A stretch of DNA of 64,000 nucleotides from Escherichia phage EPFV3-03/2025 (PV435126.1), one strand, 5' to 3'; positions 2,802-29,389 are shown, numbered from the stretch's first letter. Made by a program: numbers and translations. Notes: a model not told the origin generated them from the letters alone.

Positions 2802-3173
2802 ATGGAATTTATTATTTTGGCTGTATTGGTTGCCTTGTTTAACGCCTGGATCGCTGGCAAGATGGGTAGATCCGCCTTTTTATGGTTTATTATATCTATT
2901 TTCCTGGGGGTGGTTGCAACTATTGTATTGGTTATCCTTGCAATTGTTGACAAGGGGAATAATAGAAAGGGTAAAGTATTTTCAGACCTGTACGACGCTC
3001 AAACGTTTGTCAACGCCTATTATAGTGATCTTCCGGTCTCCTTGCGTTGCAGCCTTGCACAACAAGTTTTCGATGAAGCTAAAACCAGAGATCAAGCCCA
3101 TGAGATATGTTTAACTGAGGCGGATCGCCTATTTGAGAGGAATAGAAAATATGTGGGCCAACCGTTTAAATAA
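2802..3173 (+). CDS. hypothetical membrane protein (two predicted TM helices)
   Basis: Internal ATG 2802 with AAAGAGG RBS; hydrophobic segments ILAVLVALFNAWIAG and FLWFIISIFLGVVATIVLVILAIV. Confidence 0.5.
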   Translation: MEFIILAVLVALFNAWIAGKMGRSAFLWFIISIFLGVVATIVLVILAIVDKGNNRKGKVFSDLYDAQTFVNAYYSDLPVSLRCSLAQQVFDEAKTRDQAHEICLTEADRLFERNRKYVGQPFK

Positions 3174-25330: not shown

Positions 25331-25681
25331 TTACTGCAATAGTTTTTCAATAGCCGCTTCCATGCTGCTTGCAACAGCCTGAACTCGGATATTCATCTCT
25401 TCTTGGTGGATCAGCTCCTTAAGCTCTTTAATGGTAAATTCTTTAGAGAAACCTTCCACCATAATCTTGTGTAAGGCTTCTTGCGTATCTACCTGCAAGA
25501 ACTTTTCCAGTTTGTTGGCAGAGGCTTCTAAATCAGCCCGAATACGAGGGTCATCTGTGCGATTCAGCATCAGGCGTAAGCCATCAAGATTAGTAGAAAT
25601 AGCGTCTGCATGTTGAGTAACTAACCGTGGCAAAATGAGATCTACAAACTTATTAGCCAAATCGATACGTTCTTGTGTCAC
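25331..25681 (-). CDS. hypothetical protein (116 aa)
   Basis: ORF. Confidence 0.5.
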   Translation of the reverse strand: MTQERIDLANKFVDLILPRLVTQHADAISTNLDGLRLMLNRTDDPRIRADLEASANKLEKFLQVDTQEALHKIMVEGFSKEFTIKELKELIHQEEMNIRVQAVASSMEAAIEKLLQ

Positions 25682-25853
25682 TGTTGCACCCCCTCTTCAT
25701 CCTCATGATGTTTCTTTTCACGCTTGTGTTTTTTCTTAAGCTCAAGCGCAATCTCTTTTTTGTACGCCTTCTTCAAGGCCTTTTTAGCCATTTGGCACCT
25801 CCTCTGCTTTCATTACGCTAATTATAACCAACTTAACAAGACTTTGTCAACAA

Positions 25854-26327
25854 TTAGTCAACCTGAACCCAACCGCCTGCTACCTTTTTAAACATTCTTT
25901 GGTTATCGCTGCCTCGGAATGGTTTCTTGGTTGGTAAATCTTTTACATACTTTCCATCAATGACGATATCAGCCAGTTTAAGAACATCACTAGAGATATG
26001 CTCAAATGTGAACCCAGTATACACAAGAATAGTTTTCTTGTCACCAAACTTTTCCTTAATTCTCCTCATAAGGTCAATAATACCTGGCTCATTATAAGTA
26101 GCCAAAGGCTCTCCACCAAGTAAAGAAATACCGCATACAGATTCATTGTCTAAATCCAACAAAATTTTCTGCAAATCTTCTTCGGTGAACTCTCTTCCTT
26201 TATCTTTTGACCAAAATGCTTGATTAAAGCAACCAGGACAAGCGTGTGGGCACCCAGATACCCACAAAGCTGTCCTAATACCTGGTCCCTCGGTGTAAGA
26301 TATCTCTGTATACCCGACAATATTCAT
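25854..26327 (-). CDS. nrdG: anaerobic ribonucleotide reductase activating protein (radical SAM)
   Basis: GPGIRTALWVSGCPHACPGCFN and SLLGGEPL follow the NrdG pattern; start at MNIVGY. Confidence 0.85.
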   Translation of the reverse strand: MNIVGYTEISYTEGPGIRTALWVSGCPHACPGCFNQAFWSKDKGREFTEEDLQKILLDLDNESVCGISLLGGEPLATYNEPGIIDLMRRIKEKFGDKKTILVYTGFTFEHISSDVLKLADIVIDGKYVKDLPTKKPFRGSDNQRMFKKVAGGWVQVD

Positions 26328-26440
26328 ACATACTCCGCATCGCATTTAGGACAATGCCAAATAAAATCGTCCAGTGCCTTACACCAACGAAGATTGCAAT
26401 GACAACCACACTTGCAAATTTTATAAATACCTGTAGACAT
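26324..26440 (-). CDS. small Cys-rich zinc-ribbon-like protein (38 aa)
   Basis: AGGAGG RBS; MSTGIYKICKCGCHCNLRWCKALDDFIWHCPKCDAEYV; stop overlaps nrdG ATG (ATGA); below track cutoff. Confidence 0.45.
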   Translation of the reverse strand: MSTGIYKICKCGCHCNLRWCKALDDFIWHCPKCDAEYV

Positions 26441-26503
26441 ACTGCACCTCCTAGTTTACTGTGTAACAACAATATGCCACATCCTTGTGACTTTTGTCAA
26501 GTA

Positions 26504-27496
26504 TCAGCAACCACAACTTCCGTAGTGCTTAACCCGTTCTATAACCTCCGCTTGCTTACCTTTATTGTAAGGACGAGAGTTTGGACTGGACAGATACCCG
26601 GATACGCGTCTGATCACACTGATCGTTCCTTCTTCATGGTTTCCACATTCTGGGCATACAAAGCCTTTAGCTGTTGCACTGAACTCACCAGAGAATCCAC
26701 ACTTAAGACATTTATCCACAGGCTGGTTAATACCAAAATACATAATGTGTTTATATCCGAAATCAACAAGAGCTTCCAAAGCATCTAAGTTGTTTTTCAG
26801 ATTTGGTGTCTCTATGTACCCAATGTTGCCACCAGAGGAGATCATAGCAAAACCTTCCTCATACTTCCACTTATCAAAAGGCGAGCTATTGATCCATACT
26901 GGCTGATGGAAACTGTTGGTGAGGTATTCATGCTCGTGCTTCAACACTTCTGGGTATTCACGATCCAGACAGGTTGCAGCTTTATAGCATAAACTCTCAG
27001 AAGGTGTGCCGTACAAGCTAAATGCTAGTCCACTTTCCTTCTTGTATCGCTCACAAGCATCTTTCATGTGCTGAAGGATTCCAAGAGCTAAAGCCTTGTC
27101 ACCCTCTCTGCCCAAAATCTGACAGGTTTCATACACACCAATATACCCAATACTGATGGAAGCGTACCCGTCATAGAAGAGTTTATCGATACTCTCTTCA
27201 GGATCCAGGCGAGCAAGAGCTCCTTCACACCACATGATAGGGTTCTGCCCTGCCTTTGTTCCTTTTAGACGGTTAACCCTTACAAGGTGAGCCTCATATG
27301 CCAAATCCAAATATTCGTCAAGAACTGCAAAGAAATCAACACCTTCCGTTTTAGCTTTTGCCGCAATCATTGGTAGGTTAAGGCTAACAACACCCAAGTT
27401 GAATCTGCCAAGGTATTTCTCCTCGCCTGTTACAGGGTCGCTATATTTCGATAAGAAACTTCTACACATTATGTTCAAGGTGGTTCGCAAGGCCAC
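26504..27496 (-). CDS. nrdD: anaerobic ribonucleoside-triphosphate reductase, C-terminal part
   Basis: Glycyl radical motif RVSGYL near C-terminus, Zn-ribbon CLKCG...CPECG; first codon in track is GTG, so start or splice junction is uncertain. Confidence 0.85.
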   Translation of the reverse strand: MALRTTLNIMCRSFLSKYSDPVTGEEKYLGRFNLGVVSLNLPMIAAKAKTEGVDFFAVLDEYLDLAYEAHLVRVNRLKGTKAGQNPIMWCEGALARLDPEESIDKLFYDGYASISIGYIGVYETCQILGREGDKALALGILQHMKDACERYKKESGLAFSLYGTPSESLCYKAATCLDREYPEVLKHEHEYLTNSFHQPVWINSSPFDKWKYEEGFAMISSGGNIGYIETPNLKNNLDALEALVDFGYKHIMYFGINQPVDKCLKCGFSGEFSATAKGFVCPECGNHEEGTISVIRRVSGYLSSPNSRPYNKGKQAEVIERVKHYGSCGC

Positions 27497-27616
27497 CCCC
27501 GCACCTTTACGTGCTGCTGCATGTCCCCATGCAGATCAGACTATATCTTCACACTTAGTGTGTCTACCATTTCGAGTGTCATCAGCTTACACCCTACACC
27601 GCTACATTCATCACGG

Positions 27617-28168
27617 TTAGTCGTTAGGCATTTCGTAACAGAACTCGTAATCATAGTTATTAGGTGCACCACGTTTCAGGATAGCAGATATTCTTTTTCT
27701 ATCTATTCCTAAAACATCAGCACAACATCTCAGACTCTTAAAGTGAATAACCACACCAGTTAATTTGTGGGTGGCTTTCACCCCGTGACATCTTGTGTAA
27801 AAAGCATAACAGTTGTTGTCGTATCCTTCTTGAGTATTGTCTGGGCAAGCTCCCCACTCAAGGTTGTATACGCTGTTATCTTTCCTGTTGTCACCTTTGT
27901 GCTTAACATATGGTAAATTGTCTGGATTTGGTAAAAACGCTTCAGCAACAAGTCTGTGAACCCTTAGGCAAACAGTCTTTTTGTTCTTGCGTATCCTGAC
28001 AAGACGGTAACCTGTGTTTATCTCTTCCCACGAATGAATAATTCTTTCATTTTCGTATCGGGTGCAATAAACATTGCCCATCTCGTCAATTTCATAACCT
28101 TCAAAATCACGAATTTGTTTTCTCATTTCAGGACTCCTCTTAGTCAGGAGTTCTGTTACGTTTAGCAC
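27617..28168 (-). mobile_element. HNH homing endonuclease gene inserted within nrdD
   Basis: HNH/AP2-like signature GYRLVRI...VHRLVAEAF...HKGDNRKDNSVYNLEWG; lies between the two nrdD halves. Confidence 0.8.
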
Positions 28169-28219
28169 GGGATTGTCCGTTCTGGAGTTTCCCCGTTTAG
28201 ATAGATTTTACATGAGCAG

Positions 28220-29389
28220 TTATAGTTTACCCATGCTTGTTACTTTGCCGTCTGTTGAACCTGTCACTTTACGATTCAGCGGAACAGAAACAAAGTCAGG
28301 ATAAATCCGCTCTGCAGAACATTCTAGAGCCAATCGTTTCAAATCGTAGTTAGGATCCCCAGGGTTCATGTTGACACCCTCCTCTAAGAAGAACAGCACT
28401 TTAGGGAACACAGGTGTGATCCGTTCTTCACCAAGACCCATTTTGTGAACTTTCAAGTAGTTTTTGGTAATCATTCTACCAAAGACCGAGGTATCTAGCC
28501 CTAAACTTAATGTGATGAATGGAGTTTGCCCGTTGACAGAAGTTAACGTATTGATTTGGTAGAGCAAAGTTTGCATACTATCAAACACGTCTTTATCTGT
28601 CATTTGCATTGCAACAGTCTCAGCATCTGGCAACCAATGTTCCTGACAAAATTTAAGGTTCTTCTCGTAGGTTGCTTCAGCATACTGTGCCAGATAATGA
28701 TCAATATGGCTCATGGTCTGACCACCATATTGAGCACTAGCTACTGCACTAGAGATTTGGCTAAGGATTGTTGTTGCAACCCCTATTGACTTCGGCTTAC
28801 TGACATGGGCGTTGCCAATGTTGAATCCGTTTTCCAGCATATCCGGATAATTTACCAAACAACAGTTTGTTAACGGACTGATCAGGTAGTCAAGATCATG
28901 CACATGGATGAAGCCTTTGTTGTGCTCTTCGGAGACACGGTCTGGCAGGATCTGTGTTGATGCAAGATGTTTGCTAAGGATTCCTGCAAGCAGGTCACGA
29001 TGAGTGTGTACATGATTAGTAGGCTTATTTGCGTTTTCTTTTGTAAATTCATCACAAGTACGATCCAAGAAGCCGCTAATATCTGCAAGCAGTTTTCCAC
29101 CTGCCTCTCTGTTATTATCCCTTGTCTGTCTATACTGGATGTATTCTCTGGCTGCACATTTTAAACCCATATCCATAAGAGCATCTTCAACAAGGATATG
29201 GATATTTTTTACAGAGATCGTGCACTGGTCAGTTGGCAGATTGTTGGCAACAACTTCATTAACCGCACAGGCAATCCGGTAAGCTTCTTCTTCAGTATGT
29301 CCAGACTCAAGTAAGGCGGACTCTGCCGCCTTGATCACCTTAATTCCGTTATAAAACTCTTCTCTACCGTCCCGTTTTACAACTTTCAC
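28220..29389 (-). CDS. nrdD: anaerobic ribonucleoside-triphosphate reductase, N-terminal part (ATP-cone)
   Basis: ATP-cone-like N-terminus MKVVKRDGREEFYNGIKV; halves total 719 aa, near full-length NrdD. Confidence 0.85.
   Translation of the reverse strand: MKVVKRDGREEFYNGIKVIKAAESALLESGHTEEEAYRIACAVNEVVANNLPTDQCTISVKNIHILVEDALMDMGLKCAAREYIQYRQTRDNNREAGGKLLADISGFLDRTCDEFTKENANKPTNHVHTHRDLLAGILSKHLASTQILPDRVSEEHNKGFIHVHDLDYLISPLTNCCLVNYPDMLENGFNIGNAHVSKPKSIGVATTILSQISSAVASAQYGGQTMSHIDHYLAQYAEATYEKNLKFCQEHWLPDAETVAMQMTDKDVFDSMQTLLYQINTLTSVNGQTPFITLSLGLDTSVFGRMITKNYLKVHKMGLGEERITPVFPKVLFFLEEGVNMNPGDPNYDLKRLALECSAERIYPDFVSVPLNRKVTGSTDGKVTSMGKL

What the first reader, a model, noticed from the sequence alone, without database searches (positions are those of the whole stretch)
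26324..26440. Unannotated Cys-rich mini-ORF translationally coupled to nrdG
A 38-codon ORF with a strong AGGAGG RBS encodes eight cysteines arranged like a zinc ribbon (CKCGCHC...C...HCPKC). Its stop overlaps the nrdG ATG in an ATGA arrangement. It is below the ORF-track cutoff and may be an accessory factor for the anaerobic reductase or its activase.
Basis: seen in the sequence. Interest (0 to 1): 0.4.

Follow-up and report, generated by a model that had tools for sequence, protein, structure and literature searches.

The report
Conserved portable seven-cysteine phage mini-gene
The 38-codon cysteine-rich ORF in front of nrdG is a real, strongly conserved small gene of rV5-like coliphages, already catalogued elsewhere as a hypothetical protein, and it behaves as a portable mini-gene inserted between nrdD and nrdG rather than a dedicated helper of the anaerobic ribonucleotide reductase.

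Summary
The ORF exists at 26324..26440 on the minus strand. It has an AGGAGG ribosome-binding site 6 nt upstream, and its TGA overlaps the nrdG ATG (ATGA). It has seven cysteines, not eight.

It is a genuine gene. pN/pS is 0.09 over 13 distinct alleles and all seven Cys are invariant. It is present in about 120 Vequintavirus records and in a metagenomic sister lineage with 41- to 54-aa forms. It matches phrog_20137 and is annotated in many relatives, but missed or mis-framed in FV3 and rV5.

The "NrdG/NrdD accessory" reading is weakly supported:
- T2, Justusliebigvirus and a Salmonella phage have nrdD overlapping nrdG directly, with no such ORF.
- rV5-type genomes uncouple it from nrdG (TAA stop, 150-nt spacer, another small gene, a 53%-identical nrdG allele).
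- The SP6-like podovirus ACG-C91 has no RNR genes but carries it ATGA-coupled to DNA ligase, at a site where relatives hold other mini-ORFs or none.

There is no Pfam, NCBIfam or PDB relative. The structure model is low-confidence and zinc-ribbon-like.

Best reading: a stand-alone metal-binding mini-protein on a plug-in cassette, target unknown. Interest is low to moderate.

The parts
26324..26440 (-). Mini-ORF CDS, 38 aa plus stop: MSTGIYKICKCGCHCNLRWCKALDDFIWHCPKCDAEYV. Seven invariant Cys at positions 9, 11, 13, 15, 20, 30 and 33.
   Evidence: sequence; pN/pS 0.09 and codon-position variability 9/3/19; phrog_20137 at E = 6e-30; homologues.
26447..26452 (-). Shine-Dalgarno AGGAGG for the mini-ORF, with a 6-nt spacer to the ATG.
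   Evidence: An SD (TAGGAGG / TAGGAGA / TAAGGAG) is conserved in all lineages.
26471..26500 (-). Sigma-70-like promoter candidate, TTGACA-18-(TG)CATATT, in the 63-nt nrdD/mini-ORF spacer.
   Evidence: 10 of 12 matches, TG extension. Conserved across Vequintavirus loci. This is a consensus match only; function was not tested.
26333..26336 (-). GGAG inside the mini-ORF (codons A35-E36), 5 nt upstream of the nrdG ATG. It is a likely SD for the downstream gene and travels with the cassette.
   Evidence: The same GGAG-N5-ATGA is present before DNA ligase in ACG-C91 and in all alleles.
26324..26327 (-). ATGA overlap: the mini-ORF stop TGA and the nrdG start ATG.
   Evidence: The same junction occurs in WIN-type and long-form lineages (GTGA in L006). 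It is replaced by TAA with no overlap in rV5-type genomes.
25854..26327 (-). nrdG (class III RNR activase), 157 aa, from the MNIVGYTE start.
   Evidence: Homologues in T2, PD06 and rV5 align from residue 1. The longer start at 26345 used in the FV3 record lies inside the mini-ORF and has no SD.
26504..27466 (-). nrdD exon 2, the C-terminal part with the Zn(Cys)4 ribbon and the glycyl-radical motif RVSGY. It is the upstream neighbour of the mini-ORF.
   Evidence: alignment to the uninterrupted rV5 nrdD.

Best explanation
The ORF encodes a genuine, independently acting, roughly 4-kDa cysteine-rich (Cys7) protein. It is most likely a metal-binding mini-protein with zinc-ribbon-like topology. It is carried on a small 'plug-in' cassette that was inserted into the ancestrally overlapping nrdD|nrdG junction of rV5-like phages.

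The cassette brings its own strong SD and ends in GGAG-N5-ATGA. The gene behind it therefore keeps an SD and a coupled start, so insertion need not disturb downstream translation. This design would explain how the same mini-gene could be transplanted in front of DNA ligase in an unrelated SP6-like podovirus.

The protein is therefore more likely to act on something common to E. coli infection, such as a host factor or a nucleic acid, than to be a subunit or chaperone of phage NrdG. It would be expressed together with the DNA and nucleotide metabolism genes.

Shown: coding status and purifying selection, invariant cysteines, junction architecture, narrow distribution, presence/absence pattern, alternative contexts.

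Inferred: metal binding, the fold, translational coupling actually operating, the insertion history, and the nature of the target, which remains unknown.
For: - Coding status: pN/pS = 0.09 with pS up to 0.78. All 7 Cys codons are retained with TGT/TGC swaps.
- Strong SD in every lineage.
- The ancestral state without the ORF (nrdD and nrdG overlapping by 4 nt) is seen in T2, Justusliebigvirus PD06 and VEcB, and Salmonella phage R7.
- The mini-ORF is retained at 89-95% identity where nrdG is swapped for a 53%-identical allele and uncoupled by a 150-nt spacer plus ORF116.
- Against the long-form lineage, NrdG is 52-56% identical and PhoH 48-50%, but the mini-ORF is 81-85%.
- ACG-C91 has no RNR genes but holds the ORF with all 7 Cys, ATGA-coupled to ligase. 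Its allele is closest (85% nt) to short-form Vequintavirus alleles.
- The same kinase|ligase junction holds nothing in LL11, a different 38-aa CxxC..CxxC ORF in SHAK7163, and a 57-aa ORF in K1E and vB_EcoP_B. Each inserted ORF ends with an SD plus ATGA on ATGAATAT.
- The AF2 model shows three short strands. The Foldseek list is dominated by zinc ribbons, although none is significant.
Against: - In every genome except ACG-C91 the ORF sits in the nrdD-nrdG slot, in roughly 120 phage records plus metagenomic lineages. Position therefore does associate it with class III RNR.
- ACG-C91 is a single transfer event, and the ORF's function there is unproven.
- E. coli itself has NrdDG, so an RNR-directed role remains possible even in ACG-C91.
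- Metal binding and fold are unverified: pLDDT is 62, and there is no significant structural or sequence match.
- No expression data were found.
- No target is identified.
Confidence: 0.6

Rival explanations
1. It is a dedicated accessory of the anaerobic (class III) ribonucleotide reductase. It could be a rubredoxin- or zinc-ribbon-like redox or metal partner that reduces or loads the NrdG [4Fe-4S] cluster, or one that assists the NrdD C-terminal Zn(Cys)4 / glycyl-radical domain. It could act on phage or host NrdDG.
For: - Constant position directly after nrdD, and usually ATGA-coupled to nrdG, in two lineages.
- A W-x-CPxC knuckle, and in long forms CxxCG, reminiscent of rubredoxin and zinc-ribbon knuckles.
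- hhalign lines up its two knuckles with the NrdD Zn ribbon.
- A glutaredoxin gene directly precedes nrdD.
Against: - The hhalign probability is only 10%, and there is no Pfam hit to rubredoxin or any other family.
- Most nrdD-nrdG phages lack it.
- It is uncoupled in rV5-type genomes and insensitive to an nrdG allele swap to 53% identity.
- It is present next to ligase in a phage with no RNR genes.
Confidence: 0.2
2. It is a selfish or hitch-hiking cassette linked to the homing-endonuclease traffic at the nrd locus. It would be a remnant or passenger that spreads by co-conversion and gives the phage little benefit.
For: - The locus is a hot spot for homing-endonuclease genes. There is an HNH ORF in the nrdD intervening sequence. 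A DUF723 endonuclease-like ORF is inserted immediately upstream of the mini-ORF in typing phage 14 and in L006.
- Within Vequintavirus the mini-ORF and nrdG are far more variable (78-95% identity) than their neighbours (97-100%).
Against: - Strong purifying selection on the peptide and invariant Cys.
- No similarity to the DUF723 protein (hhalign probability 2%).
- The ORF is present in essentially all genomes of the genus whether or not an endonuclease gene is nearby.
Confidence: 0.08
3. It is a small zinc-finger regulator in the manner of phage Mu Com. In this reading it binds mRNA or DNA at or near its own cassette and controls translation or transcription of the gene behind it.
For: - It is encoded immediately upstream of, and overlapping, the start of the next gene in two unrelated contexts. 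The downstream SD lies inside its own coding sequence.
- Long forms carry a Lys/Glu-rich N-terminal extension.
Against: - The downstream genes (nrdG, ligase) share only ATGAATAT.
- In rV5-type genomes nothing is coupled to it.
- No similarity to Com/Ogr or any nucleic-acid-binding family was found.
Confidence: 0.07
4. The peptide is irrelevant. The ORF would serve only as a leader that delivers ribosomes to nrdG, or it would be a chance ORF.
For: - The ATGA overlap.
- Cys-rich short ORFs also arise by chance in this window.
Against: - pN/pS = 0.09 with near-invariant amino-acid sequence at saturating synonymous divergence.
- It is conserved where it is not coupled to anything.
- It is conserved in a different genome context.
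Confidence: 0.03

Closest known systems
phrog_20137 (PHROGs v4, labelled 'ribonucleotide reductase') and the GenBank/RefSeq 'hypothetical protein' entries such as JES2013 ORF108 (YP_008530353.1)
   Same: Full-length match at E = 6e-30. The annotated ORFs sit in the same place in relatives.
   Different: The label is guilt by adjacency. A 38-aa protein has no RNR, glycyl-radical or radical-SAM domain. The analogous SHAK7163 mini-ORF next to ligase falls in a PHROG labelled 'DNA ligase'. No member has been characterised.
Zinc-ribbon modules (for example Rpb9/TFIIS-type ribbons, the PolD DP2 zinc finger, the small zinc-finger protein ZifS, the NrdR N-terminal ribbon)
   Same: It has two Cys knuckles (CxC or CxxC, then W-x-CPxC) about 17-18 residues apart. 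The model predicts three short beta strands. Zinc ribbons dominate the non-significant Foldseek and PDB lists.
   Different: It has seven rather than four Cys. The first knuckle is CxC in the 38-aa form. No match reaches significance (best E = 0.33 by sequence and 2.3 by structure), and the model is low-confidence.
C-terminal Zn(Cys)4 site of class III RNR NrdD (described for T4 NrdD; from my own knowledge of the literature)
   Same: A CxxCG ... CPxC pattern, encoded about 150 nt upstream in the same operon. hhalign aligns the knuckles.
   Different: The hhalign probability is only 10%. The spacing differs by 4 residues, and there is no glycyl-radical segment. There is no evidence of common descent.
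Rubredoxin / desulforedoxin (small Fe(Cys)4 electron carriers)
   Same: Small size, and CxxCG and W-x-CPxC knuckles in the long forms.
   Different: No Pfam hit. The inter-knuckle spacing is shorter, there are three extra Cys, and the second knuckle lacks the Gly.
Small accessory ORFs of T7/SP6-like phages and 'morons' (small genes slotted between essential genes)
   Same: It is tiny, tightly packed and translationally coupled, with presence, absence and replacement polymorphism at a fixed junction. It is exchanged between unrelated phages.
   Different: No sequence relationship to any characterised example. No host target is known.
Phage Mu Com (small zinc-finger translational activator encoded just upstream of, and overlapping, mom; from my own knowledge)
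   Same: A small Cys-rich protein whose gene overlaps the start of the next gene.
   Different: No homology. The downstream genes differ between contexts. It is uncoupled in rV5-type genomes.

Membership tests
phrog_20137 (uncharacterised small phage protein family) | Full-length match to the 38-position family profile | tested here: met
   E = 6.3e-30, positions 1-38 of 38. The long form also matches.
Ribonucleotide reductase (as the PHROG and RefSeq name implies) | Presence of an RNR catalytic, glycyl-radical or activase (radical SAM) domain | tested here: not met
   no Pfam family even at E <= 10; no NCBIfam match. 38 aa is too short for any such domain.
Zinc ribbon (structural class) | Two zinc knuckles (CxxC / CPxC type) supplying four ligands | tested here: inconclusive
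   The second knuckle, CPKC, is present and invariant. The first is CxC here and CxxC in the 41- to 54-aa forms. Which of the 7 Cys are ligands is unknown.
Zinc ribbon (structural class) | Three-stranded antiparallel sheet carrying the knuckles | tested here: inconclusive
   The AF2 model has strands 16-20, 25-30 and 35-37 but a pLDDT of 62. Foldseek top hits are zinc ribbons at E >= 2.3.
Zinc ribbon (structural class) | Bound Zn(II) | not testable with these tools
   Needs metal analysis of purified protein.
Rubredoxin (PF00301) | Match to the family profile, with CxxCG...CPxCG about 29 residues apart | tested here: not met
   no hit. The spacing is 17-18 residues and the second knuckle is followed by D or G.
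   Absent in T2, PD06, VEcB and Salmonella R7, where nrdD overlaps nrdG. It is restricted to Vequintavirus and one sister lineage.
   Coupled in WIN-type and long-form lineages. In rV5-type genomes there is a TAA stop, a 150-nt spacer and ORF116.
   ACG-C91 has the ORF but no NrdD, NrdG, NrdB or Grx.
   Needs co-purification or an activity assay.

The most novel reading that the evidence does not exclude
The Cys7 mini-protein could be a previously unrecognised dedicated partner of glycyl-radical (class III) ribonucleotide reduction. One version is a minimal rubredoxin-like electron donor or metal-delivery factor for the activase NrdG or the NrdD zinc site. Another is an antagonist of a host regulator of nrd genes. 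Such a partner could work on host NrdDG as well, which would explain its presence in an RNR-less podovirus.
Probability: 0.12. Interest if true: 0.65.

Novelty: new member of a known kind. Interest (0 to 1): 0.3.

Why it matters
The practical value lies mainly in annotation.
- The gene is real and should be called in FV3-like genomes.
- nrdG should start at MNIV, not at the upstream ATG inside the mini-ORF.
- The rV5 gp109 call is in the wrong frame.
- The database name 'ribonucleotide reductase' for this 38-aa protein is an artefact of adjacency.

Biologically it is a tidy example of how very small phage genes move. The ORF-sized cassette ends in an SD plus ATGA. It therefore slots in front of another gene's start codon and leaves that gene an SD and a coupled start, even across unrelated phage families.

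The protein is unusually constrained and has no detectable relatives among 1.8 billion representative proteins. That makes it a reasonable candidate for a small-protein/host-target screen, but nothing here points to a new kind of system.

Tried and rejected
- Pfam, NCBIfam and PDB sequence searches of the peptide or its profile gave nothing significant.
- An exhaustive HMMER profile search of 1.84 billion representatives returned only the family itself, in two clusters.
- A genome-contig scan found no bacterial or prophage copy.
- The metagenome hit L015 is a chance match in a non-coding frame of a high-GC bacterial contig.
- Descent from the NrdD C-terminal Zn ribbon is unsupported: hhalign probability is 10%, a generic knuckle alignment only.
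- A remnant of the neighbouring DUF723 endonuclease is unsupported: probability 2%.
- AF2 on the shallow alignment gave pLDDT 62. Foldseek against the PDB gave no hit below E = 2, so the fold assignment stays a pattern-level inference.
- Rfam found no RNA family over the ORF.
- The terminator-like hairpin at 26491..26476 overlaps the promoter-like spacer and is weak.
- Two literature searches found nothing about this ORF. The Certrevirus paper PMC7344957 lists NrdG and NrdD under consecutive gene numbers (CB7_187, CB7_188).
- The first homologous-protein run failed because the query was under 40 aa. I repeated it with the five in-frame upstream codons added.
- The alternative Vectrevirus cassettes and rV5 ORF116 have no copy in this window.

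Full report
**1. What is in the sequence.**

The ORF is on the minus strand at 26324..26440. It encodes MSTGIYKICKCGCHCNLRWCKALDDFIWHCPKCDAEYV.
- AGGAGG lies at 26452..26447, 6 nt before the ATG.
- The stop TGA (26326..26324) overlaps an ATG (26327..26325) that opens nrdG as MNIVGYTE... (157 aa, 25854..26327).
- A GGAG at 26336..26333, inside codons A35-E36 of the mini-ORF, lies 5 nt before that ATG.
- The peptide has seven cysteines (positions 9, 11, 13, 15, 20, 30, 33), not eight, and two histidines.
- Cysteine richness is not decisive by itself. The window contains six ORFs of 30-70 aa with at least 7 Cys, mostly in antisense frames. Mononucleotide shuffles give 0.11 ORFs of 30-45 aa with at least 7 Cys per window.

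**2. Where the window comes from and how the ORF is annotated.**

The region is 98% identical to the Vequintavirus phages SYGMH1 and FV3.
- The local gene order is nrdB, glutaredoxin, nrdD, mini-ORF, nrdG, two small ORFs, phoH, clpP-like.
- JES2013 annotates the mini-ORF as ORF108, with the RefSeq name 'ribonucleotide reductase'. Many other records call it 'hypothetical protein'.
- FV3 omits it and starts nrdG at an upstream in-frame ATG, MRCGVCMNIV.... That ATG is created by the K32-C33 codons (AAA TGC) and has no SD. NrdG of T2, PD06 and rV5 aligns from the MNI/MNV/MNY start.
- rV5 itself annotates a 75-aa ORF in a different frame over the same DNA (gp109).
- The peptide matches phrog_20137 over its full length at E = 6e-30. 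It has no Pfam or NCBIfam match.

**3. Is it a gene? Yes.**

tblastn finds it full-length in about 120 phage records. I compared 13 distinct nucleotide alleles of the 28-codon core.
- Variable sites fall 9/3/19 on codon positions 1/2/3.
- Mean pN/pS is 0.09, with pS up to 0.78.
- All seven Cys codons are retained, with frequent TGT/TGC exchanges.
- The histidines are not conserved: H14 varies R/S/K/E and H29 varies to Y.
- Invariant residues cover most of the core: K7, C9, K10, C11, G12, C13, C15, N16-L-R-W-C20-K21, L23-D-D, I27-W28, C30-P31, C33, E36-Y37.

**4. Family breadth.**

The family is very narrow.
- The 5.8-billion-protein word-indexed search found nine clusters. These are 38-aa forms and 53- to 54-aa forms. 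The longer forms have a Lys/Glu-rich N-terminal extension and one extra residue that makes the first Cys pair CxxC.
- A 41-aa intermediate occurs in O157 typing phage 14 and in P0010.
- An exhaustive HMMER profile search of 1.84 billion representatives returned only two clusters, both from the family itself.
- IMG/VR, the JGI/ENA metagenome contigs and the GTDB genomes added nothing beyond Vequintavirus-like contigs and one chance hit.

**5.

(a) The long-form lineage consists of metagenomic phage contigs, the longest 133-136 kb. NrdG there is 52-56% identical and PhoH 48-50% identical to the window's proteins. The ORF sits between nrdD and nrdG with a 4-nt overlap, as here.

(b) In rV5-type vequintaviruses (rV5, isim, L012, L013) the ORF ends in TAA. 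About 150 nt of spacer follows, then a 78-aa gene (rV5 ORF116, phrog_3249). That gene is itself ATGA-coupled to a different nrdG allele, 53% identical to the window's. The mini-protein stays 89-95% identical.

(c) In T2, Justusliebigvirus PD06 and VEcB, and Salmonella phage R7, nrdD overlaps nrdG directly by 4 nt with no intervening ORF. The Certrevirus paper likewise lists NrdG and NrdD as consecutive genes (PMC7344957). The mini-ORF therefore looks like a lineage-specific insertion into an ancestrally coupled nrdD|nrdG junction.

(d) The SP6-like podovirus vB_EcoP_ACG-C91 (Vectrevirus) carries an unannotated homologue, MSVFKICKCGCRCNLRWCKALDDVIWYCPKCNTEYL. It is 74% identical and keeps all 7 Cys.
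- It lies between the nucleotide-kinase gene and the DNA-ligase gene, and its TGA overlaps the ligase ATG.
- The whole ACG-C91 genome has no NrdD, NrdG, NrdB or glutaredoxin homologue.
- Its allele is closest (85% nt) to short-form Vequintavirus alleles. Homology runs from the ATG to ...ATGAATAT, which is also the start of the ligase (MNIF) and of nrdG (MNIV).

**6. A cassette site.**

The Vectrevirus kinase|ligase junction is polymorphic.
- LL11 has no insert (gatatttgatATGAATATC).
- ACG-C91 has the Cys7 ORF.
- SHAK7163 and others have an unrelated 38-aa CxxC...CxxC ORF.
- K1E and vB_EcoP_B have a 57-aa non-Cys ORF (phrog_15259).

Each insert starts at the ATG that follows the kinase stop. 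Each ends with an SD-like motif plus ATGA on the ligase start. In Vequintavirus the corresponding slot also accepts other small genes (ORF116) and a DUF723 endonuclease-like ORF (typing phage 14, L006).

Within the genus the neighbours are 97-100% identical, while the mini-ORF (78-95%) and nrdG (53-94%) vary. This is consistent with recombination and homing traffic at the site.

**7. Structure and chemistry.**

- AF2 on the shallow alignment gives a low-confidence model (pLDDT 62) with three short strands.
- Foldseek against the PDB gives nothing below E = 2. The list is dominated by zinc ribbons: Rpb9, a NUDIX N-terminal ribbon, ZifS and NrdR.
- The best PDB sequence match is a PolD DP2 zinc finger at E = 0.33.
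- hhalign against the NrdD C-terminal Zn ribbon aligns the knuckles, but at 10% probability.

The 'zinc-ribbon-like' description is therefore reasonable at the level of pattern. It is not demonstrated, and three of the seven invariant Cys are unaccounted for. They could form a second metal site, a bridged binuclear site, or intermolecular ligation. All of that is inference.

**8. Most likely mechanism.**

Shown:
- It is a real, strongly constrained mini-gene.
- Its architecture is SD - ORF - (GGAG-N5-ATGA).
- It is dispensable for nrdD-nrdG systems in general.
- Its coupling to nrdG is not conserved.
- It can live in an RNR-less phage.

Inferred:
- The product is a stand-alone metal-binding module. 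It would be expressed with the DNA and nucleotide metabolism genes, possibly from the conserved TTGACA-18-CATATT site at 26500..26471.
- It binds a target common to E. coli infection rather than phage NrdG.
- Because the cassette carries the SD and coupled start for whatever gene follows, it can be inserted or exchanged without an obvious cost to downstream translation.

I put 0.6 on this reading. I put 0.2 on an RNR-directed accessory role, for which gene position is the only evidence. Smaller weights go to a homing-associated passenger, to a Com-like regulator, and to a mere leader ORF; the substitution pattern excludes the last.

**9. Novelty and verdict.**

The ORF is already catalogued (a PHROG family and many GenBank records), but it is uncharacterised and partly mis-annotated. 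It belongs to the familiar class of tiny Cys-rich phage proteins. The portable-cassette behaviour and the extreme constraint are neat but not surprising to a phage genomicist. Interest is 0.3.

Noticed in passing
window 27467..28228 (-); HNH ORF 27617..28168 (-); Rfam hit 27517..27751 (-): nrdD is interrupted by a 762-nt intervening sequence carrying an HNH endonuclease ORF. Alignment to the uninterrupted rV5 nrdD puts the junction between ...TSMG and CRSF..., with synonymous recoding just after it. Rfam RF00028 (group I intron) matches at E = 8.8e-6 but only 32.9 bits, below the gathering score of 50. It is probably a group I intron with a homing endonuclease. FV3 annotates it as two NrdD CDSs.
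   Followed up: partly
window 26327 vs 26345 (-); FV3 NC_019517 FV3_00109: The closest RefSeq relative starts nrdG 18 nt too far upstream (MRCGVCMNIV...), inside the mini-ORF and without an SD, and so hides the mini-ORF. Homologues support the MNIV start.
   Followed up: yes
L018 (rV5 NC_011041) 2936..3163, and 3001..3117: rV5 gp109 (ORF114) is annotated in a different frame over the mini-ORF. The conserved 38-aa frame is not annotated in the type phage.
   Followed up: yes
L018/L019 3118..3975 compared with window 25854..26323: There are two nrdG allele classes within Vequintavirus, 53% identical over roughly the first 130 residues with an identical C-terminal 24 aa. This indicates a mosaic replacement. 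The rV5 type brings a 78-aa gene (ORF116, phrog_3249, mis-named 'minor capsid protein') that is ATGA-coupled to it.
   Followed up: partly
L020 773..889, L021 773..946, L022 773, L003 4998..5108: The kinase|ligase junction of Vectrevirus phages is a swap site for at least three unrelated mini-ORFs, or none. Each mini-ORF ends in an SD plus ATGA on the ligase start. The SHAK7163 38-aa zinc-ribbon ORF falls in phrog_13972, labelled 'DNA ligase', which is another adjacency-derived name.
   Followed up: partly
L004 1279..2439 (O157 typing phage 14); L006 45..1259: A 386- to 404-aa protein containing DUF723 and DUF4379, probably a free-standing homing endonuclease, is inserted between nrdD and the mini-ORF in some genomes. 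There it is accompanied by the 41- or 53-aa CxxC form of the mini-ORF.
   Followed up: partly
window 25678..25791 (-): A 37-aa Lys/Glu-rich ORF (MAKKALKKAYKKEIALELKKKHKREKKHHEDEEGVQQ) lies just after nrdG, preceded by a perfect TTGACA-18-TATAAT at 25850..25821. It is conserved at 97-100% in relatives (rV5 ORF118). Its composition resembles the N-terminal extension of the long-form mini-ORFs.
   Followed up: no
search results: Eighteen GenBank records named 'Campylobacter phage' (MG0656xx) are about 91% identical to this E. coli Vequintavirus region. They look like rV5-like coliphages deposited under a Campylobacter host label.
   Followed up: no
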